NCBI GenBank assembly: GCA_951406725.2
Contig: OX597819.1
Span: 83,328,001-83,392,000, forward strand
From: Octopus vulgaris
Lineage: Eukaryota
Length of the DNA stretch: 64,000 nucleotides
Reading direction: 5' to 3'
How positions within the stretch are numbered: the first letter of the stretch is position 1; every line of letters starts with the position of its first letter. A program made the position numbers and the translations under genes. The notes under the pieces are model-generated. The model searched no databases. It saw nothing but the letters and a program-made list of their open reading frames with translations, and was not told where the DNA came from. Shown here in pieces: positions 5,480 through 56,068 of this stretch.

Positions 5480-7422
5480 ACTTTACTCTTACGGTTCTGT
5501 TGATGACTAACGAGCCCTGTTCTTCACAAACATACACTACTGCAAAAATTGCAGACTAAGCCTTCCCTATGCATTACATTAGCAGTGCGTTTTTGAGCAG
5601 CACGCTTAAATTCTTCATGAAGAATACGTGCTCTTTCAAAAGTATCAACTCCCTCCTTTACTTGTTTTCTCCAACCGTGGCGATAACAAGCATTGCTCTC
5701 CCAATCAGCCTCCTGCATTTCACAGGCCTTTAATGAGGCCTTTACACAGTCCTTAAATCGCAGTCTTGGACTCTGTCGGGATCGCTTTCCACTAACAAGT
5801 TCCCCATATAACATCTGTTTAGGAATCCTGCTAATCATACATTCTAACAAGGTGTCCGGTCCAACGTAACCGGTGTTTGTGCACCAATCGCCTCAATACT
5901 CAGGATACAGGCTTTCCTCAGGACCTGTGTATCTGGAGTTTTTAAGGTCCAGCCAACGTTCAGAATGTTTCAGACGTTTTTGATGGAAGCGTTCAAGGTC
6001 CTTTACATGACGTTTGTAAATGGTACATGTCTCACATGAGTAAAGGAGTGATGTCAGTACACGTGCATGGTACACAACAATTTTTGTTAACCTTGTGATG
6101 CCATGGTGGGACCAGACACGAGACTCAAGAGACCTAAAGTAATCAGTTGCTCTCTGCAACCTGAAAGATATTTCATCATCCAGGGAGCAAGAACGGTTGA
6201 GTGTGGTGCCCAGGTAGACAAACTTGTCAAACACTTTCAGTATTGTTCCTTCAACGAAGATAGCTGGTTCCACATATGGGTTTCCTGATGCAGACTGGAA
6301 CATTACAAAAGTCTTGTCCAGGCTAATGCTGCGTCCAAATTCCTTACAAGAAGCAGAAATATGATTCACATGTATTTGCATATCATCTGCTGCATGAGTG
6401 ACAATCATCTGCATAAAGTATGTCATAAATAAGAGACTGGAAAACTTTTGAATTGGCAGCAAATTAACGCAGGTTAAAAAGACGGCCAGAAGGTCGATAC
6501 TAACATTTATCCCAGGAGAGCTGTCCACATCAAAAGCATGAGTAAGAGTAGCAGCAAAGTACAGAGAAAAGATAGTTGGAGCAAGGATGTTACCCTCCTT
6601 GACACCATTCTCTACAGGAATTGGTCCCGTCATGCCACCACCAACATTGACCCAAGCCTCCATCCCATCATGAAATGATTTGATTAATGATACAAAGTGA
6701 TCCGGACATCCAAGTTTGTCACGTATTTTCCATGGAGAGACCCTATTCACAGTATCAAAGGCCTTGGTTAAATCAATGAATACCTGGACAAGATCCATAT
6801 TCTGCTCATAGCACCTTTCCTGCATCTGTCTCGCTGTGAAAACCATATCCATCGTTCTTCTTCTAGATCGGAAACCACATTGAAATTCAGACAGGACATC
6901 ATTTACAAGACACCAGTTCAGGCGGGTAAGAAGAATACTTGCCAGAACCTTGCCAGCAGCTGATAGTAGGGCAATACCTTTAAAGTTGCCACATTCTACT
7001 CTGGCTCCCTTTCCCTTATAGAGAGGAAGAATAATTGCATCCTCCCAGTCCTCAGGCATTGCACCATCCTTCCAGATTACACTATTAAGTTCATGAAGGG
7101 ATTGTATGAAGTAATCACCATCAAATTGCAGTCCAAATGCCATTCTTACCAGGTGCCTTACCAAGATCCAATTTACTTATGCTGTCATTACCTCATCTAT
7201 TGGGAGCGTGGAATTTTAGGAGCTAATGACAGGTCTCTTGCATAGTGTCAATCACTGCTTCGTCCACAACTGACTTACGGTTTAGGAGTTCAGAAAAATG
7301 TTCTCTGTTGATGTAGTAAACAGAGTGGAAGACACCTTGGAAAGCAAGGGCACTGATGCAGAGCTCTTAGGCCCATAAACTTGCTTCATAAAATGGTAAA
7401 AGCTTCTTGCTGTCATTTTCAT
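5480..7422 (-). mobile_element. RTE-clade LINE, 3' half (reverse transcriptase), decayed
   Basis: ORF 5893..7164: W.DAII.PLYKGKG...CGNF.GI.LLS.AGKVL, QCGFR, FIDLTKAFDTV, GVK.G..LAPTIF, F.YLG. ORF 5524..5850: RIPKQMLYGEL..GKR...RFKD..KASLK. Confidence 0.92.
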
Positions 7423-9789: not shown

Positions 9790-10432
9790 GGGAAGATGAA
9801 TAGCAATGACTCATGCTTCTGTAGCTTTGCGAGAAATGCGAACTTTACATCACAAGCACTCATTTTATGCACAGAGGTGATCACACAACAACGTGGATGT
9901 ACCCAAAGTCTAAAGATTGGTACTTGCTGGATTATGTCATTATTCGCAAGCGTGACACCTGTGACATTTGTTATGTCAAGTCCTTTCATGGTTCGGAGTG
10001 CTGGATGGACCACAGCCTGCTGCGAGCAAAGTTTCGGATGATGATCAGACTGAAAGAAAGAAGAGGGCCAGTTGGCATTCCTTGGCGTCTAAATGTCCAT
10101 AAGACATGTGACGCTGTGGTGAAGATAGGGCTTCAGAATCGTTTATCCAGTACTGAAAATACTGCAGCGTGGAAAGATTTTCAAGACCAGGTTTTTCAAT
10201 GTGCAGCTGAAACACTGGGGTACGCTACTGCCAGACACAGGGACTGGCTTGATGAAAATGATGCGGAAGTTCAGCGACTGCTGGTGATAAAGCACCATGG
10301 CCACAATGTATTACTGCACAAAGGACTTTCAGTTGTGCAGCGAAATCTAGCACTTGCCCACTACAGTAGTGTAAAATCACTACTGCAGCGATCTCTGCAG
10401 AATACATGGCGAGAGGGTCTTGCTCGTGATGT
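9790..10432 (+). mobile_element. RTE LINE APE-endonuclease/linker fragment
   Basis: TTWMYPKSKDWYLLDYVIIRKRD...GSECWMDHSL and HRDWLDENDAEVQRLL are typical RTE endonuclease C-terminus and linker motifs. Confidence 0.85.
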
Positions 10433-10611
10433 TCATCATCCGGAACTTTGTTCGCACCAGGCTGTGGTCTGCCCAGCACTGCGAACCATTAAAGGACTTG
10501 ACATTACAAATGTCAGAGACGTCATGCTTGCGAATGATGACACAATCCAGCAAGTGTCAAACTTTAGACGTTGGATGCAAAAATACATACATACATACAT
10601 ACATACATACA

Positions 10612-11060
10612 GTACAACGAAATAAGAACCAACAGCATGGTAGAAGCCATAGCTACTCATAATAAAAAGGATTACTAGTGGATTGTCTCTGTGAAAACCT
10701 CAATAAAATGTAAGCACAACAGACCTGATATAATGACTTGGGATAAAGAAGAGAAACTATGTATAGTTATGGAAATCAGTTGCCCAGTGAATGTTAACAT
10801 AAAACTGAGGATCAGTGAAAAACAGAATACCTATGCTGAACTTTTGAGAAATCTGCAGTTACTCTATCCAGATTACAGAGTTCAGGTTTATACCTGTAAT
10901 AACTTGAGCACTAGTATATGTAACACACTACGTGAATACCAATCTTGAGAAATTAGGCTTCTCAAAACCAGAAAGGAGGATTACTTTATCAGACTACAGA
11001 TCCAATCCATCACTGGAACTGTAAAAATCTGTAAAACTTTCCAGAAGTTTATCATTTAAG
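10612..11060 (+). mobile_element. R4/Dong-clade LINE 3' fragment (restriction-like endonuclease)
   Basis: CKHNRPDIMTWDKEEKLCIVMEISCP...EKQNTYAELL...LQIQSITGTVKICKTF is a PD-(D/E)xK RLE domain. Confidence 0.8.
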
Positions 11061-20509: not shown

Positions 20510-21460
20510 TTGCTCAATATATCGAGTGAGGTTGGTAACCTTTACTTTCTTTTCAACTACTTTATTGTTATTTGACAGTCGATAGGTATTTTTGCCACAA
20601 ACTTCTACAACAGTGGAAGAACCTGTGCAGCGTTCCATAAAAGTCTTCCCTTTCTGTTCTCTCGAATTAGGCTTTTGAGTAGAACTTTATTTTCAATACT
20701 GAGCTGTTGTTGCTCATGTTTACTATCGTATTGTTCTCTTTGAACAGACTGAGCTATTCAAATATTGGAGGCTACTCAAGAAATCATACTGACCCAAATA
20801 GCTGTCATAACTTCAATTTTCTGGATATAGATTGACCATTTCCAAAACTGTCCTTATCTTTGGCAGATGGGTTGTGCTGTAGTTCAACTGGAAGTGTAGC
20901 TTGCCTGCTGTATAAAATTTGAAATGGGGTAAAATGTGTTGAAGAATGTTTGGTTGTTTGGTACGCAAACAGAACTGCTGGTAAGCATTCAACCCAGTTG
21001 CCACGATCCTCAAAGGAATTGATAAAAGCATATTTTATAGTGCGATTCTGTCGCTCCACGAGGCCACTCGCTTGAAGGTGATAAGCACTTGTTATGTGCT
21101 GCTGTGTTGCTGTCAGTTTATGTAGTTCTGCAGACACTCTGTTTACAAATTCTCTTCCTTGGTCATTTATCAGAATTTTTATACAGCCATGCCGACAAAT
21201 AACATCCTCAAAGAGACACTTTACCACAGTTTTCGCTGTGTGATCTTTCAGAGGTCGAACCTCAAGCCATTTGGAAAAGTAATCCATTGCAACAACAATG
21301 CAACAATAACTATCATCTGTTTTGGGCGAATTGGTGATATTGACACCAATTTGTGCCATCATTTCATTTGGGACAGGAACAGGATGAAGCTCTCCAACAT
21401 TAATTTTGTGAACAGGGCTCACCTTTTGACACCGAACTCTTTCATGCACACGTAGACTCA
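20510..21460 (-). mobile_element. Gypsy-type/Ginger1-like integrase remnant
   Basis: CQK..ELHPVPVP...IGVNI..DYFSKWLE..CRHG...INDQGREFVN...TSAYH.QASGLVERQN...TPF..LY.R...LP, followed by a decayed GPY/F-like module. The first catalytic D appears as N. Confidence 0.85.
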
Positions 21461-21486
21461 CACACTTACACATAGAACCGACTACA

Positions 21487-21525
<39 letters not shown>

Positions 21526-21729
21526 TCACATGCACAACACACATGCAAGAAAGCATACTCACAATCACACGTGCAAACATGCACTCCCTGATAGAACCAA
21601 CTACATCATACAAACATACATCCACACACATTCACCAGAACGCACATGCGCAAGTACACACAAGAACAAGCAAAATCACACACATGCATTCTTCCTTTCT
21701 CTCGGTATTAAGTACAAGTAAAGCAGACA

Positions 21730-33796: not shown

Positions 33797-34807
33797 CACC
33801 TTCCTCTTGTTGCCAATACTGAGCATCAGTGTAAAAGACCAAACCACTACCACCTTTCTCCCATTTCAGTTCAATATCATCTTCAAACAATCGTTCTTTG
33901 TTTCGTTCTTGGCCACTTGGATCATCATGCAATGCTTCATGGCGTTCCCACTCTTCACAATAATCAGCATCTTCTTCAGAATAATCAGAACCACGATCAA
34001 ACTCAATCATTTTTTCTTCAATATTCAAAGCCATTTTTCTCTTCATTTCAGCGATATTTTGTTTTCTCCTGGCTTTTTCCTCCATTTTCAACCGCCTTTT
34101 TTCTGAAACATCAGTTTTTTGTGATATTTTAACATCATTTTTCTCCAATTTATCACAAACTATCCTACCATTTGAGTGTGGAAGGTGGATCTGAATTTTA
34201 TGAGAGCTATGAGGGTTTGCACCAAAATGAAGATTCTCAGAGGTAGTTAAAGAAATGTCAGTACCATTTTCTCTGCTTTCATTATTAGCAGATACACCTA
34301 AATGACAGCTGGTGCTAGCATCAATATTTGCATCAGTTCTTAGACTATCATTACAACTTCTACTACTATCATCATCAACAGTAGTATTAGTTGTAGTAGT
34401 AGTTGCTTCATTTGTATTTTCTTTTTGTCTTTTACTGAATTGATTTTTTATAAGATTTAATTTCCTTTTGGAAAGATTTTTCTGAAAATTTTCATTTCTT
34501 GAGCCTGTTTCAAGAGTGTTACCAGAACTAGGAAGACACTGTATATCATAGTCACATGGAACACGTCCATATATGTTGTTATAAGTTACTTTAGGAAATT
34601 CAAGTTGCAATTTACTGATAATCCTTGGTGGTAATTTGCATTGATTGATTAATTCTAAGAAAACATAAGTTGGAGTGCCTACATTTCCTTTTGGCATAAC
34701 AGTAGGTGCATGGAGTTCAGGAAGGTTTTCAAGGTCAGTCTTTGTAAATACTTCGCGATCTTCAGGAATTTGAGTTTGTTCCTCTCTGGTTTTGTATGGA
34801 ATCTGGT
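33797..34807 (-). CDS. GPATCH3: GPATCH3 coding exon 3
   Basis: Contains LPELHAPTVMPKGNVGTP..VFLELI..CKLPPRII.KLQLEFPK and EEWERHEALHDD..GQER..E.LFE..IELKWEKGGSGLVFYTDAQYWQ. Acceptor is ttttcag|, donor is G|GTAAGG; 1011 nt, phase 1-1. Confidence 0.95.
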
Positions 34808-35600
34808 CTGAAAATACCAAAAGAATAAGTCTTTGTATAATACAAGGATCCAAAGGTTAGAAAGAAAGATATTACATTCAATTTTCATAGATTCTTAATG
34901 AAAAAGAACTCTTTATTCAGTTAAAATTAGTTTTATCTGTACTTTCATTTTGTATTTTATTAATTCACTATTCATCCTGCCACATGAGGGTAAAAAATAA
35001 TTTTCAAAACAGTCAAACACAAAGGAGACATTATATGACAATCTCAAGGTTTTGTATGTGGGTCAACATAATAACCAGCCAGGCTGGACATTAAAAAAAC
35101 TCTACTACACATACACACATATAGCACATTTTAAGGTTAGATACTCTCACTATGCATATATCATGCATTTTTACAGATCATGGGAGAACATCTACAGTCA
35201 TTAAATCTTGACTACAAACACAATCAAATTTCTTCTAGCTGATCTGATTTCAGGACATCAATTGTACTTGATCAGTCTCTGGATGAGTGAATTGAGACAT
35301 CAAGAGTTAAGTAGCCATATCAGAAATATAAAGAAGAACCTCTATGAGTTAGCTGTTGAATACCTTATTTCATCATTTGCTCAAGTAGCATATTAATTTT
35401 ATACAGAGCAGTGGATATGTCTGTTTAATAGTGTGCCATAATAAATACAATAGTATTTCATTTTCTTCTTCTCAGTTCTAAATTCAAATCTTGCCAGAAA
35501 CCACTTTCTCATTAATGTACTGATGTCAGGTAAATTATCTACACTGCTTCTCCTATAGAAATTGGTTTCATATCTATGTACACAACCAATATTCTAATTC

Positions 35601-36072: not shown

Positions 36073-39010
36073 CTAAAAACAAAAAAAAGTGGTTTTTCAA
36101 ACAAAACATCGCTTAAGCATAACAATCTCTGTATATTTGCTTCGTAAATCTATTTATAGCTGGTAAAATAACACCTGAAAAGAAGTTGGAAATCTCAACA
36201 TAAAACAGAAGGATACTCTAAACAAGGCCATGATTATCAAAGAAGAGAAGGATATATTTAAATGCTAATTTGTCATAAGACAAGATAATTATGAATTATT
36301 ATAATGCTACTAAGGATTCAGGAATATGTAGAAGAAATATTCATAGGGATAACAACAATGATAACATATTTTTTCCTTTTACTTCCTACACACCAACAGA
36401 ATATAGATTTCTTTTGATTCTATTGGAAGAATAAAGTAATAATGATTACACAGTACATGGTTTGTAGGTACAGCTTATCATTCAAACAACACCAACACTT
36501 TTGAAATGAAACAGCCATTTTGGATCATGCTTGGAATACATAGAGAGTAAAGTCTTTACAAGGCAGGAAGGACTACCGAGACATAAGATGTAGCCCTATG
36601 TTTTATAGGATATATATATTAATAGCTACTGAAGTAAAGTTGAGATAAAAACATATAAAAGCTCCCTTTTAATCTTTGTTACATCTGAAGAGGAGAAGTA
36701 TGAACCATACTCAATCAGATCATTCTCAGATGAGGAACTTAAAGAAAATATATTTATATCCATGTGTATTTAATCTACCTGTGAAATTAGTTCCATGAAG
36801 GCACTTATCAGCAGCTCGGAAGAGTTATCAAACCAATTGGTTTCACAACTCAACAAGATTTACTGACCCCCTCCCTCTCAAACTACCAATGAAGGCTATT
36901 TAAAAAAGGAACAAATATGTAAGTACAAATTCATTTACATATTGTTACAAGTTTGATAGTTGCAAACTATCAAAAAAAAAAACCTTCATAGGCAAAATTT
37001 CACAGCGGGTCTAAATAAAGTTATGAGTTCATATATTTATTTAATGTCAATGTAGCTTGGTAAGAGAGAAAGACAAGCTCCAGTAAGCTGACTTGCTGGA
37101 AGTACACTAATGAAAAAAAATCTTAGCGGAAACAGGTAGTACCATGTATGAAGCTTTATAGGTATTAAGAGCAAAGTCTTGACAGGTTGCAAAGTAACAA
37201 ATTTGAGAAGACATGCAAGTATTGTCATTGAGAAGAAATTAGGAAAGCAATACTGACTAAAGGGAATGGGAATAAAACTGAAATGAGTAAATTTTGATTA
37301 GGACTAAGAGAGCTGGTTGTATGCTATAACAAAACATCTTTAACTTTTTTCAACAATACTTTTGCAGTAGTGTGTATGGTTGTAAGTAGCTATAAATATG
37401 CTGGTGCTGATTCTTATGTGATCCAGATAATAAATTATCTTTTAAATCAAAGTAGCAGTGAAGAAAGGATATTATAATGATACATTTCCATACAAACATA
37501 TGAAACCAAAATTTAATCAGCAATAAAATAATAGATTCCAAAGAAACTAGATATGTTCTGCATCAGCAATAAAATTCAACAATTTGTGTAATGCATTAGC
37601 ATGGCTGTGCAGTTAAGAAGTTTGTATCCTAATCACATAATTTCCTGTTCAGCCCTACTGTATCAAAGCTGAAGCAAGTTTCTTCTATTATAATCCCAGA
37701 CCAACCAAAACATTACGAGTTGAGTTGACAGATGGAAGCTGGAAGAAATTCCATTAAAAAATGTGAATTGTATACATTCCCAAATTTCAAATCCCAACAA
37801 ATATAAGGAAGAAACGATTATTTCCTTACTAATAACAGTCTGCAAGGGGAAGATGTGTATACATGTGTGTGGAAATGATATGTGTGTATGTGAGTGAGTA
37901 ACCTTGTCTTGACATCACAGTGTTGTAAACAAGTATTACTGTCATAGAAGCAGTGTCATTTGTTTCTAGTTGCCTGTGAGATATATCTGACCATGAGTAA
38001 ATATTACTTTGCTTGGGAAAAAGGTCAAGGTTATTGAAAGGAAGGGCACCTGGCAGAAGAAAATCTACTATTACAGATTCTGTCCAGCCCATGAAAGCAT
38101 AGAAAAGTAGACATTAAAACAATACTGGCAATGATGAGTGTAATATGTTTTATGCCATGAAGAAGTATGTCTTGGACAGAGAGAGAGAGAGAGAAAGAGG
38201 TCTTATATCTAAGCTGCAAAAATGTGAATGGTCAACTGTCAATCAGTTGATTTTTGCTAAGTTGTAAGTTGAAAACATAAACAAAATAAAGGTAATCTTA
38301 AATTTTAACATGTGTATCCTAACTTTCATCCATTTTATTAGTCTTATGATTAGCAGTCTATATTAGTCATTTCTGTAGGTGGAAATTATTGATAAATGAA
38401 GAAGCAGAGGCATAAAATTAGAAACTCATAGTCAGAAATCTTGCAGTGTGGGCTCTATTTAATTTCATATTTCTAGTTCATTTTTAACTATTATACTTGG
38501 TGCTAATCAGTTTCATTCTTTTATTAGTTTTGAAAATTCATTTTTTAATGTGCATGAACAGGATTTTTTTCTTTTTCTGATCACAAATATTTGATATCAG
38601 TTTACTTGTGTTTATATTCTGTAGGAGCAATCTTTTGTCTTAAATACATATATCTGCAGGACTGAAAGTGAAACTAATCAATCTGGGAAAATACAAAAAT
38701 AGACTTGCATTTACTGAGTGAATGGAACAATACTTAAATGTCATTTATTAAATCATTTATTTACTAACCTATTAGTTTTTTTTTTTATATTTATTTATTA
38801 AAATAGTTAATTATTTTAATAGTAACACTTGTTTCAACTTTAAAGACAAAGTTGTTGAAGTATCTTCAGAAGGCCTACAAATAAAATAATAACCATACTG
38901 TCACAATTCTATAAACACGTTACAAATTGGTTATGTGAAGAATAATTTTAATAGGAAGGATTGCCAGAAAAATATACTAACCCCTAAACAACAATAATAA
39001 TAATAATAAT

Positions 39011-39708
39011 AATCCTTTCTACTAAAGGCACAATGCATGAAATTTTGTGGTAAAGGCTAATCAATTACATTGACCCCAGAGCTAAATTGGTACTTATTTG
39101 ATCAACCCTGAAAGGATGAAAGGCAAAAATCAACCTAAGCATAATTTGAACTCAGAACATAAAGATGGATAAAATGTCACTTGGTATTTTTCCCATTGTG
39201 CTAACGATTCTGGGAGCTCTCCACCTTAATAATAATAATAAAAATCCTTTCTGCTATAGACACAAGACCTAAAAGTATGGAGGAGGAGGTTAGTCGATTA
39301 CATCAACCACAGTGCATAACTGGTGCTTATTTCATTGACCCTGAGAGGATGAAAGGCAAAGTCAACCTTGGCAGAATTTGAACTCAAAATGTATGGATGG
39401 TCAAAATACTGCTAAGCACTTTGCCCAGGGTGCTAACGATTCTGACAGCTCACTGCCTTAATAATAGTAATAATAATAATAATAATAATAATAGTTTCAA
39501 ATTTTGCCATGAGGACAGCAATTTTGGGTGAGAGGATAAGTCAATGACATCGATCCCAGTACTCAACTGGTACTTATTTTATTGACCTCCGAAAGGATGA
39601 AAGGCAAAGTTAACCTCAGAGAAATTTGAACTCAGAACATAAAGATGGACTAAATGCCATTAAACATTTTGACTGGCATGCTAACAATTCTGCCAGTTCG
39701 CCACCTTA
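39011..39708 (-). mobile_element. Three head-to-tail SINE family A copies separated by (TAA)n
   Basis: Units at 39011-39228, 39243-39461 and 39493-39708. Confidence 0.8.
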
Positions 39709-40047
39709 ACAATATTTGAAAAAAAAACAACACAACAACAACAATAATGATAATAATAATAAAATTGGAAGTATTCCTAAGAAATTACAAAAATAAATCT
39801 GAAAAGATTTAACCAAAGAGAATATCAAATTACTATATTTCCATTTAATAAGTGACTTTTTTAAGCATTTGTATATTTGTTCCACTTACTTGGGAAACCA
39901 AGTGACACTCTTTTATTTTAGGTACATATATTTCCAAGACTAAAAATGAAGCTAAAGAATTAATAACACTGTGTAATTTTTTTTTTGTTTTATCATTACA
40001 TTATTTTCTATTTGCTTCTATCTAGAAATCAAAGGAAATGATTATTA

Positions 40048-40327
40048 TTCCCTTCAAACTTTGCCTTTGTGACCGGAATATCAATGTTTTGAAACTGACC
40101 AATTTTTTCCTATTACATTTCAGACAGACTCAGCACTGAGTTGCTGAAGCAGAATTTTCTAGAGCTTTCTAGAAGTTTCAAGAACTTTCTGAAAGTTTCA
40201 AGAATTTCTACAATGTTCTGGCAACCTAGATGGCAATATAAATGCAGGATTCATAAGCTCAAGAGTTCAGTTTACTTCTAGCTGTCCAAGTGGAGACAAG
40301 TTTGAGGAAAACAAAGTTTGAAGGAAA
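40048..40327 (+). mobile_element. TA-flanked MITE carrying an HSE array, TATA and Inr
   Basis: TIRs ttcccttcaaactttg / caaagtttgaaggaaa with TA on both sides. Confidence 0.7.
40151..40272 (+). promoter_or_regulatory. Heat-shock-type promoter cassette (HSE array, TATAAA, TCAGTT)
   Basis: 11 phased alternating nGAAn/nTTCn pentamers at 40151-40205 (2 imperfect), TATAAA at 40237-40242, TCAGTT at 40267-40272. Confidence 0.6.
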
Positions 40328-40750
40328 TATCTACCATTTTTCATACTTTCTAAGAGATAAGCAAATAGGAAATATCAGTTGCTACCCAAGGACAATAATC
40401 GTGTTACACAGTGTAATTTGTGTTAGAGACATATTATCTGCAGGACTAAAATAAAACTAAGCAACCTAGGGAAAATACAAAGTTAGAGTTGGTGGCAATC
40501 CTTAGGAGGAAGTATCTCATGTGTCAAATGAAAAACCACATGTTTTATCCATGTGTTCAACAATTTCCAGAAATTAAAAAAAAATTTTTTTAATACTTTT
40601 CCATGTGTTGGTGAGGCTGACATTGACTTTGATTTACACAAGATAGCTGAACTGTCAAACAAGCAATCAAACACATTCACTCACTCTCACAGACACATAT
40701 GTGCATATACATCTTTTTTTATGCTTTTACAAATCACTTATGCTTATGTA

Positions 40751-42492: not shown

Positions 42493-42553
<61 letters not shown>

Positions 42554-42554
<1 letters not shown>

Positions 42555-42960
42555 GATCTTTTCGGTTTGAACGGCAGTTTTTACCATAATTTCTAGGTAA
42601 CTAAAAAATTTTAAACTTCGTATACTGGTAGAATGTGTTTATAAAACATCTTTTTCTCTTGGCTTTATAGAGAAAATTCTATAGTTTGTAAGATATTTGT
42701 TGGATTTTTTTCTTCAATTTCAACCTATCAGTGACGTCTATTGAGTTAAAAAGCATTACGTGCCATATAAATTATGTCCCTCGTTTAAGAAACAGATTGG
42801 GTTTATTTACATTTGTGAAGAAAAATAGATACCCTTCCCCCACCCCTAACTAACCCTAAAACAGATTGAAATGCAATAGATCGATACTAGGGTCATAATT
42901 ATGGGTGACAATTTCATGACACCGCTAGAAAAAAAACTGCCGTTCAAACCGAAAAGATCC
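42554..42960. mobile_element. MITE with perfect 29-bp GG-initiated TIRs (Merlin-like?)
   Basis: ggatcttttcggtttgaacggcagttttt / aaaaactgccgttcaaaccgaaaagatcc; inserted at a (GA)n tract; TSD not resolved. Confidence 0.8.
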
Positions 42961-43777
42961 ACAGAGAGAGTCTGTATTCGACATTTCAGCTATCTCGTGG
43001 TAATGGAAAACAATGTCGGCATGTACAAGATTCCTCATAAGTCTACCAATACGGTACTGTTATCACCAAGTTACTCCCAATTGTGCAAACCTAAAAGCTA
43101 AAGGTATTTTCAGGGCCCTGTCGCAATTTTATTCTCACACGACGTGCACCAAGAATACGTCCTTTTCTAAGACAGTAGGGTGTTATATGAGGGAGATACG
43201 ACGATTTTGCTATGTTTTGTTTTGTTTTATTTTTTCAGCTAATTAGTATTTGAGATCCATAAAAGTATGGGACGATTACATAACTAGAGACATCTAAAAG
43301 TTCATTAGATGTTTGGCATTCTTAAATCAACGCAGAACATCTTAGAATGACTAGGTGAGAGAAGTGTAAACACAAGAACAGTAACTCTTACTATTAAAAG
43401 CTGAAGTTGTCAAAATCTACCTAAATTACAAGTCCTCTGGTGAAAAGTGTACTGTAGACTTCAGCAAAATTAATGCTTTCTCTGAGAGTATTTTTTTAGC
43501 TTCTTTATAAACATAACTGATAAGAACTCATGTTTTCTATAAGAGCTAACATATGGTTATATCAATTACTTTAAAACTGAAATAATCATAAAAGATGGCT
43601 GTAATTATCTTTAAAGCCCTATATTTGTTTGGGGGAAAATTTGAAAAAGAGAAAGAGAGATTAATAAAGAGGGAGTCATGTAAAAATAATATTCTAAAAA
43701 ATTAAATAAGTGCTTTCATAAATGGTAAAATACAATGTAAAATTTAAAACATAAACATGTTAGTGTTTACATCTAAC

Positions 43778-43946
43778 CATGATTGTTAGGCAATTGTTTC
43801 TGCGGTAGTCTCTTCACTTCAGGACGATGACGATAATGAAAACAGTCAAAGCCATCGGTTTCAACAATAGAGGAAAAAAAGTTACGTAAGTCTTTCGAGT
43901 GATATTTTGCAGGGATGTTTCCAACCACCGCATGTATAACAGCCAT
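43778..43946 (-). CDS. GPATCH3: G patch domain-containing protein 3, coding exon 1
   Basis: Not in the ORF track; translated by hand: MAVIHAVVGNIPAKYHSKDLRNFFSSIVETDGFDCFHYRHRPEVKRLPQKQLPNNH. It matches the GPATCH3 N-terminal motif (IP..LRS..LR.YFS...GF.CFHYRHRPE). ATG context is caaaATGg; donor is G|GTTAGA; 169 nt, phase 1. Confidence 0.93.
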
Positions 43947-45202: not shown

Positions 45203-45323
45203 GGTACTACTTAAGAAGAGTGGTCCCGGTGCGCGTACTCGTGCATCCGCGCTAGCTAGTCGTGACTAGTCGATCCTACAACGACTACCTAGCGCACCGG
45301 GACCACTCTTCTTAAGTAGTACC
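45203..45323. mobile_element. 121-bp Merlin-like MITE
   Basis: Perfect 32-bp TIRs ggtactacttaagaagagtggtcccggtgcgc and a perfect 8-bp TSD CACATTTT. Confidence 0.85.
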
Positions 45324-45457
45324 CACATTTTCCTATGAAAGATCAGACCTAACTGTTCCTGAGACACGATCATCTTACAACCAACCAGTTTCACAATTAT
45401 AGTAGATACATATTTACGGCGTCACTTCCCAATGAATAGGAAAAGTAAATTTAATTA

Positions 45458-54760: not shown

Positions 54761-56068
54761 CAAAGTGGTATCAAAAATTTCCTGGACTAGTTCTGTAGTG
54801 CACCAAGAGATGATAGCACACAGCTGCACGTGCAGTGACAGCCAGCAATGACCTTCATAATCCAGTGTGCTAAGTGACATCACTGTGTTTATTTTGCAAG
54901 TTGTGAAATTTGTGTTTTTGTGATCACGTGTATGCTGTAGTCTGTGATTTTGTCTTGGACAGGAACAAAGAGCCAACGTGAAATTTTGCAATAAACTTGC
55001 GAAGTCTGCTACAGAGACTTTGAACATGCTTCAATAAGCTTACAGTGATGTGACAATGGGTTGTACACAATGTTTTGAGTGGCACAGTTGCTTGAAAAGC
55101 AGAAGAGTGTCCCTGGAAGGCAGTAAATAACCTGGAAGAACTGCCACAGGTGTCACCCCCAAAAATGTAGTATTTACTTTTCTACTCTTTTACTTGTTTC
55201 AGTCATTTGACTGCAGTATGCTGGAGCACCACCTTTAGTCGAGCAAATCAACCCCAGGACTTATTCTTTGTAAGCTTAGTAATTATTTTATTGGTCTCTT
55301 TTGCCAAACAGCTAAGTTACGGGGATGCAAACACACCAGCATTGGTTATCAAGCGATGTTGGAGTGACAAACACACACACACACATATATATATATAAAT
55401 ATATACGACGGACTTCTTTCAGTTTCCGTCTACCAAATCCACTCAAAAGGCTTTGGTCGGCCCAAGGCTATAGTAGAAGACACTTGCCCAAGGTGCCACG
55501 CAGTGGGACTGAACCCGGAATCATGTGGTTGGTAAGCAAGTTACTTACCACACAGCCACTCCTACACTTATATTGTGCATTGAGAATTCATCCTCCAGAG
55601 CCAGACCATCAAACAAGAGTTCTACTGCAATGTTTTGAAGCATTTGAGTGGGGACACTCAACAAAAGCAACTGGATCTATGGAGCATGAAAAATTGGATC
55701 TTCATAATGACAATGCACCCTGTCACTGAAACTCATGAGTTTCTCGCTAAAAACGACATGGTATCACTTCTGCACCCACCCTATTCACCCAATTTAGCAC
55801 CAACAGACTTCTATCTCTTTCCCAAGATGAAAATGCAGCTCAAAAGTCACTGTTTTAACACCTTTTTTGAGATCAAGAGTGAATTACAGAAGGTTCTCAG
55901 CTCATTTACAGAAAACAACTTCCACGCTGGATTCCAAAAGTGGCAGGAATGCCAGGACCAGTGTATTACTGCATCAGGTGACTATTCCAAAGAAGATGAT
56001 GTTAAAACTTTAGTAAATAAGATATTTTTTATTAAACATAACTAGTCTGAGAACTTTTTGGTACATTG
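54761..56068 (+). mobile_element. Internally deleted mariner element interrupted by SINE B
   Basis: Imperfect TIRs with TA flanks; EQRANVKFC.KL.KSATET.. and HNDNAPCH..HPPYSPNLAPTDFYLFPKMK. Confidence 0.82.
55178..55565 (-). mobile_element. SINE family B
   Basis: Reverse complement of the 12805-13225 consensus. Confidence 0.8.

What the first reader, a model, noticed from the sequence alone, without database searches (positions are those of the whole stretch)
40048..40327. MITE carrying a complete heat-shock-type promoter, antisense in GPATCH3 intron 1
Seen: within 16-bp TIRs with TA flanks lies aGAAt tTTCt aGAGc tTTCt aGAAg tTTCa aGAAc tTTCt gAAAg tTTCa aGAAt (11 phased pentamers, 40151-40205). 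TATAAA follows at 40237, then TCAGTT with its A 32 nt after the TATA start. Known: HSF binds three or more alternating nGAAn units, and HSE-TATA-Inr is the hsp70 promoter layout. Inference: a portable stress-inducible promoter that could seed HSF-responsive sites genome-wide and here drive antisense transcription through GPATCH3.
Basis: partly seen in the sequence, partly recalled or inferred. Interest (0 to 1): 0.75.

Follow-up and report, generated by a model that had tools for sequence, protein, structure and literature searches.

The report
Heat-shock promoter of a wandering transposon
This is an old, decaying gene-less copy of a jumping gene that has moved between fish and octopus, and the heat-shock-style switch inside it is the parent element's own promoter, which likely let it switch on under stress in any animal, while nothing shows that this copy regulates the gene it sits in.

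Summary
The motifs are real, but the element was mis-drawn. It is 447 bp (39967-40413), ends CACTG...CAGTG and is flanked by a TAA duplication. That makes it a non-autonomous Chapaev3 (Merrow-like) transposon, not a 280-bp TA-flanked MITE. In longer copies the HSE-TATA-Inr block lies 92 nt (TATA to ATG) before the transposase start, so it is the parent's transposase promoter. Two Merrow-type relatives from other sources keep all 23 motif bases and the spacing; neighbouring bases are 68-74% identical. The array is not needed for mobility: a sibling MITE with the same ends and no array has 1,501 motif matches, against 31 for this form. After context control, copies lose the motifs at background rate. 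This copy has lost its TATA-proximal HSE but keeps five perfect distal units. It lies antisense in GPATCH3 intron 1; nothing shows it is transcribed. HSF-driven transposons are known (ONSEN, Helitrons); ten literature searches found none for Chapaev. The scan's sequence and word look-ups found no earlier report of this element. Heat induction is untested.

The parts
39964..39966 (.). Left target-site duplication TAA, preceded by A
   Evidence: matches the A-TWA-T rule of Chapaev3 in PMC4079192
39967..40413 (+). Whole non-autonomous Merrow-like Chapaev3 element, 447 bp, 91.2% identical to the 458-bp family consensus
39967..40068 (+).
40151..40205 (+). Distal HSE array, 11 phased pentamers, 9 perfect; a 10-bp tandem expansion seen in this octopus subfamily and not in L061, L063 or the second subfamily
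40205..40219 (+). TATA-proximal three-unit HSE (nTTCn-nGAAn-nTTCn), conserved across lineages, broken here by a G to C change at 40211
40237..40244 (+). TATA box (TATAAATG here, TATAAATA in the consensus and the relatives)
40267..40272 (+). Initiator-like TCAGTT; predicted start at A 40269
   Evidence: the start site is inferred, not observed
40292..40307 (+). Deletion junction: the 5' leader stops at 40300, 28 nt before the parent's ATG, and a short filler joins it to the 3' TIR
   Evidence: 33 copies carry this short junction; 9 leave the consensus here
40308..40413 (+). 3' imperfect terminal inverted repeat, ending TTACACAGTG
40414..40416 (.). Right target-site duplication TAA, followed by T
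43779..43946 (-). GPATCH3 coding exon 1 (residues 1-56)
33798..34808 (-). GPATCH3 coding exon 2 (residues 57-393 of isoform X3)

Best explanation
This is a decayed, gene-less deletion copy of a Merrow-like Chapaev3 DNA transposon, and the HSE-TATA-Inr block inside it is the parent's transposase promoter, which likely let host heat shock factor (HSF) switch the transposase on. Shown: the ends, the target-site duplication, the position of the block before the transposase ATG in longer copies, its conservation in relatives, and that a sibling without it was copied far more often. Inferred: HSF trimers bind the proximal three-unit HSE 17 nt upstream of the TATA box, helped by the expanded distal array; Pol II starts at the Inr; a two-exon transposase is made and moves full-length and deleted copies through the long TIRs. 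Also inferred: this intronic copy is a passenger that has decayed without selection and is at most a weak or leaky HSF site.
For: Copies L013, L022 and L178 run from the TATA box into the transposase ATG at 92 nt. The 204-aa piece in L013 is 72-73% identical to fish proteins and other database proteins; the 562-aa P0002 fits Merrow's 78+484 aa. The termini match the published Merrow ends (by eye). Per-site majority of 18 octopus loci against L063: exon 1 91%, exon 2 86%, intron 81%, third codon positions 73%. L061 and L063 each keep 23 of 23 motif bases against 47 and 51 of 69 other bases, with TATA-to-Inr spacing unchanged. Across four lineages 9 of 9 HSE core bases are invariant against 10 of 23 other upstream bases, Fisher p = 0.004 with the TATA anchor left out. 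A second octopus subfamily lost the distal array but kept the proximal HSE and its 17-nt spacer. The array is at the 5' end only (L061 downstream best score 2 of 8). The sibling MITE has 0 of 20 copies with a three-unit HSE or TATAAA and 1,501 motif matches. The host has an HSF DNA-binding exon. After context matching, copies show no motif preservation: proximal core 4.5% vs 6.7%, p = 0.16; distal 7.1%, p = 0.77; TATA 11.6% vs 10.2%, p = 0.47.
Against: There is no binding, induction or start-site evidence. The four lineages form only two clades, so p = 0.004 overstates independence. 21 of 22 more distant Chapaev loci with their N-terminus held lack an upstream three-unit HSE, so the promoter is not general to the superfamily. 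Before context matching the proximal core looked under-mutated in copies (16 observed vs 29 expected, permutation p = 0.008 in 42 copies; p = 0.04 in 26 copies found by a downstream motif), so weak selection is not excluded. 41 of 44 copies still hold three or more perfect units. L063 was taken as Merrow by inference, not by alignment to the published consensus.
Confidence: 0.75

Rival explanations
1. The intronic copy has been co-opted: HSF binds the distal array under stress and drives antisense RNA that dampens GPATCH3, or acts as an enhancer of it.
For: The copy keeps five perfect units in a row, TATAAA and TCAGTT. It points toward exon 1, 3.5 kb away. Both junctions are present in DNA runs X18 and X19, which carry two different organism labels. 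Helitron-borne HSEs do this in Caenorhabditis (PMC6927752, passages).
Against: The copy is 91.2% identical to consensus, inside the family range of 81-93%. Its proximal HSE is broken and TATAAATA has become TATAAATG. An AATAAA lies at 40450, about 180 nt after the predicted start, and would likely end a transcript early. The family shows no motif preservation after control.
Confidence: 0.1
2. The GAA/TTC array is a subterminal transposase-binding repeat, or a palindromic 10-bp microsatellite, that only looks like an HSE.
For: TRF calls it a 10/20-bp tandem repeat, and unit number varies among copies. CMC elements such as CACTA have subterminal binding repeats (recalled).
Against: The array is absent from the 3' end. 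It is absent from the sibling MITE that was copied about 50 times more often with the same ends. The part kept across lineages is the three-unit core at a fixed distance from the TATA box.
Confidence: 0.1
3. The promoter is real, but HSF drives it constitutively in the germline or embryo rather than after heat shock.
For: A transposon must act in the germline to persist (general knowledge). HSF-1 has a developmental programme distinct from heat shock in C. elegans (PMC5066613, search listing only).
Against: Nothing tested here. The tandem expansion of perfect units fits cooperative stress-type binding (PMC2871787, passages). This rival overlaps with the best explanation rather than excluding it.
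Confidence: 0.2

Closest known systems
Merrow (Chapaev3-1_PM), Chapaev3 group of the CMC superfamily (PMC4079192: section 14, passages, supplement parts 1-2 of 3)
   Same: Termini, A-TWA-T target site, two-exon 562-aa transposase, MITE derivatives (MerrowN1_TO, 577 bp, 18 copies), patchy distribution across phyla.
   Different: The paper's main text has no occurrence of 'octopus', 'mollus', 'heat' or 'promoter'. The octopus lineage is 81-91% from the proxy L063 and has an expanded HSE array. Supplement part 3 was not read.
Helitron1_CE and Helitron-acquired HSEs of Caenorhabditis (PMC6927752, passages)
   Same: A DNA transposon with clustered HSEs in front of its own transposase gene; non-autonomous copies carry HSEs to new sites.
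   Different: Rolling-circle, not cut-and-paste. HSF binding, induction and effects on neighbouring genes were shown there; none is shown here, and the common MITE here lacks the HSEs.
ONSEN/COPIA78 and Cryptococcus TCN3/TCN12 LTR retrotransposons (PMC7329337 and PMC12810828, passages)
   Same: HSEs in the element's own promoter tie its activity to host HSF (shown for ONSEN, putative for TCN3 and TCN12).
   Different: Retrotransposons of plants and fungi, with the HSE in an LTR that is copied to both ends.
'Blurry' promoters of Tc1/mariner elements (PMC6446368, passages)
   Same: A proposed solution to the promoter barrier in horizontal transfer.
   Different: Those are AT-rich with weak core motifs; this one has sharp TATA and Inr motifs and a site for a conserved activator.

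Membership tests
Chapaev3 | 3-bp TWA target-site duplication between A and T | tested here: met
   Window copy A-TAA...TAA-T. Of 48 copies, 29 right ends were found (22 TWA, 21 TWAT) and 25 left ends (15 ATWA); 8 of 15 with both ends have identical 3-mers, 7 of them TWA.
Chapaev3 | Transposase motifs C(2)C, LH and H(4)H | tested here: met
   C(2)C in L032 and L193, LH in L193, H(4)H in L037 and L200; decayed in L013. The window copy has no coding part.
Merrow | Termini as in the published alignment | tested here: met
   Compared by eye with supplement Figs S2 and S6.
Merrow | Two-exon transposase, 78 + 484 aa | tested here: met
   P0002 is 562 aa and P0001/P0003 are 484 aa; the intron is at the same place in L063 and in octopus L182, L184, L193, L199.
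Merrow | At least 80% nucleotide identity to the Merrow consensus over 300 bp | tested here: inconclusive
   81-91% against L063, used as a proxy; single decayed copies give 65-86% per aligned piece. The published consensus was not available to align.
Tc1/mariner-type TA-flanked MITE | TA target-site duplication at the element's ends | tested here: not met
   The TA dinucleotides at 40046-47 and 40328-29 lie inside the TIRs; family sequence continues about 80 nt beyond them.
MITE | Under 600 bp, TIRs and TSD, no coding sequence, deletion derivative of an autonomous element | tested here: met
MITE | High copy number and homogeneity | tested here: inconclusive
   54 distinct loci held, 33 with the short junction; 81-93% to consensus. 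Searches give lower bounds.
HSF-responsive promoter | Three or more alternating nGAAn units within about 400 bp of a start site | tested here: met
   definition from PMC2871787; the start site is predicted
HSF-responsive promoter | HSF binding and stress-induced transcription | not testable with these tools
   No raw stranded reads or binding data were available.

The most novel reading that the evidence does not exclude
Merrow crosses between phyla because it runs its transposase from a compact hsp70-type promoter read by HSF and the basal machinery of any animal: a sharp universal promoter, the opposite solution to the blurry promoters of Tc1/mariner. In octopus the HSE array expanded, and promoter-bearing copies were then outnumbered about 50-fold by a derivative that replaced exactly this block, which would fit selection against scattered stress promoters.
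Probability: 0.3. Interest if true: 0.65.

Novelty: new variant of a known kind. Interest (0 to 1): 0.4.

Why it matters
If the promoter works as predicted, it extends HSF-driven transposition from LTR elements and Helitrons to an animal cut-and-paste family. It would also give a concrete, testable answer to how a transposase gene stays expressible after jumping between fish, lampreys, insects and molluscs. The genome holds a natural experiment: two derivatives with the same ends and similar divergence, with and without the promoter, differing about 50-fold in count. The GPATCH3 copy itself is probably of little consequence.

Tried and rejected
RNA evidence: no listed holder is on record as RNA. 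Only contigs could be laid (X1, X2, X19, X20; X18, X19, X20, X3); they cannot show strand, start or level, so expression is open. X20 showed no listed contig across either junction, which proves nothing. Selection on copies: an apparent deficit of changes in the HSE cores vanished against background GAA/TTC triplets; six loci of the second subfamily or a duplicate pair were left out, and 10 of 54 loci did not span the promoter. Copy number: the 1,975 first-look candidates are not copies of this form; they fit the sibling that shares its ends. Pfam has no family for the transposase piece (one weak GRAS hit below cut-off). No relative in viral contigs or plasmids. The ORF at 37829-38113 is not an exon of isoform X3. 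Lead from earlier notes, that LINEs insert at start sites: no such insertion was seen in the 44 copies that span the promoter; partial copies were not checked one by one. The tree is the quick version; the careful search did not finish. Literature: 10 searches found no report of HSEs in Chapaev or Merrow; Repbase reports and most subscription journals are not in the library.

Full report
Observation. Nine of 11 phased pentamers at 40151-40205 have a perfect GAA/TTC core; TATAAA is at 40237 and the A of TCAGTT at 40269. Elsewhere in the window the best 11-unit score is 4, so the array is not chance. The host gene is GPATCH3 on the minus strand, with coding exon 1 at 43946-43779 and exon 2 at 34808-33798, essentially identical to the Octopus sinensis protein. 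The block therefore faces antisense in intron 1.

Boundaries. A search of the own genome gave 43 matches at about 40 loci. The consensus of 24 copies is 458 bp with imperfect TIRs of about 110 bp; copies are 81-93% identical to it and the window copy 91.2%. The window copy spans 39967-40413 between A-TAA and TAA-T. Of 48 copies, 22 of 29 located right ends are followed by TWA, 15 of 25 located left ends are preceded by ATWA, and 8 of 15 with both ends have identical 3-mers. PMC4079192 gives A-TWA-T as the Chapaev3 rule. The ends match its Merrow alignments by eye.

Origin of the promoter. Thirty-three copies share one deletion junction and 9 leave the consensus there. Several of those continue into a transposase ATG, 92 nt after the TATA start in L013, L022 and L178. 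A 204-aa piece of L013 finds 114 longer proteins, the best at 72-73%, including sturgeon and cypriniform fish proteins. P0002 has 562 aa, the length given for Merrow. The motifs C(2)C, LH and H(4)H are present among octopus copies, and the intron position is shared. The per-site majority of 18 octopus loci is 91%, 81% and 86% identical to L063 in exon 1, intron and exon 2, and 73% at third codon positions. This fits horizontal transfer followed by long activity under selection; that reading is an inference, and the host of L063 is unknown.

Conservation of the module. Of 80 metagenome loci, 24 held the N-terminus. L061 and L063 (88% and 96% aa to P0002) carry HSE-TATA-Inr-ATG; 21 of the other 22 have no upstream three-unit HSE, and L076 has three units next to a TATA box. 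L061 and L063 each match the octopus consensus at 23 of 23 motif bases, against 47 and 51 of 69 other bases. A second octopus subfamily lost the distal array but kept the proximal HSE at the same 17-nt distance from TATA. Over these four lineages 9 of 9 core bases are invariant against 10 of 23 others (p = 0.004), but the lineages form two clades only.

A natural deletion test. Laying contigs showed a loose end where the array begins. It belongs to a sibling MITE with the same ends and a replaced middle: 1,501 matches to a 24-nt junction motif, against 31 for a 22-nt motif of the promoter-bearing form (control 1), both with up to two mismatches. None of the first 20 sibling loci has a three-unit HSE or TATAAA. 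The array is therefore not needed in cis for transposition, which argues against a transposase-binding role. By my hand tally 21 of the 31 matches were among the 40 loci, which suggests about 60 copies, probably an underestimate; one search gave 79 candidates.

Fate of the copies. Of 44 copies that span the promoter, 26 keep the proximal core, 21 TATAAA, 26 the Inr and 6 all three; 41 keep at least three perfect units somewhere. Raw rates suggested protection of the HSE cores, but against background GAA/TTC triplets the difference is not significant (p = 0.16 and 0.77), and TATA decays like other TA sites (p = 0.47). The window copy has a G to C change in the middle unit of the proximal HSE and TATAAATG. 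It keeps five perfect distal units. Both junctions are present in runs X18 and X19. An AATAAA at 40450 would likely cut a plus-strand transcript short (inference).

Mechanism. Most likely (0.75): host HSF bound the proximal HSE and distal array, Pol II started at the Inr, and the transposase moved full and deleted copies through the long TIRs; the intronic copy is a passenger. The host encodes an HSF DNA-binding domain. Binding and induction are untested. Co-option at GPATCH3 (0.1) and a look-alike repeat (0.1) are the main rivals; germline rather than heat-driven HSF use (0.2) overlaps with the main reading.

Comparison. It works like Helitron1_CE, whose transposase gene has upstream HSEs and is HSF-1-induced (PMC6927752, passages), and like ONSEN (PMC7329337, passages). 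It is a member of Chapaev3 by target site, termini and transposase motifs, and Merrow-like by ends and gene structure; the 80% criterion was tested only against a proxy. It differs from blurry Tc1/mariner promoters (PMC6446368, passages). Ten searches found no HSE described for Chapaev or Merrow; Repbase reports could not be seen. The scan's own look-ups by sequence and by words found no earlier report of this element.

Verdict. The locus is an ordinary decaying transposon copy. The family-level result, a conserved hsp70-type transposase promoter in a horizontally transferred cut-and-paste element, is a new variant of a known kind. Interest 0.4.

Noticed in passing
G000, L207-L226 (1,501 motif matches): A sibling MITE of about 490 bp has the same first 200 bp and last 105 bp as this element. 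About 190 bp of unrelated sequence replaces the HSE-TATA-Inr block, starting at the first units of the array. The source of the filler is unknown.
   Followed up: partly
L167/L184, L171/L199, L192, L193, L200: A second Merrow-like subfamily in this genome has a different upstream region, no distal array, the same proximal HSE and TATA, and a longer TATA-to-Inr distance.
   Followed up: partly
L053, L058, L059; P0104, P0026: Another octopus Chapaev family is 88% identical (majority, 468 of 531 residues) to a mantis shrimp (Oratosquilla) protein, and the Merrow-like copies group with a second Oratosquilla protein in the quick tree although they are closer by identity to the fish protein (85% vs 81%). 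Possible transfers between crustaceans and octopus.
   Followed up: partly
L076:477-520: A distant Chapaev element (45% aa) has three perfect HSE units 14 nt before TATAAATA; it may be an independent or ancestral HSE promoter. Background is 8 three-unit hits in 165 kb.
   Followed up: partly
L034-L060: At least three further Chapaev3 families in this genome, 2,485 first-look candidates for the transposase piece; the upstream regions printed showed no HSE array by eye.
   Followed up: partly
window 45221-45325: A near-perfect palindrome of about 100 bp lies 1.3 kb upstream of the GPATCH3 start codon.
   Followed up: no
window 38995-39700 and 42549-42961: Very high-copy repeats flank the element in intron 1: tandem SINE-like units, and an inverted-repeat element with ends GGATCTTTTCGGTTTGAACGGCAG.
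   Followed up: no
window 5893-7176, 9825-10625, 20805-21605, 55584-56045: Decayed RTE-like reverse transcriptase and endonuclease, integrase-like and mariner-like reading frames (labels recalled).
   Followed up: no
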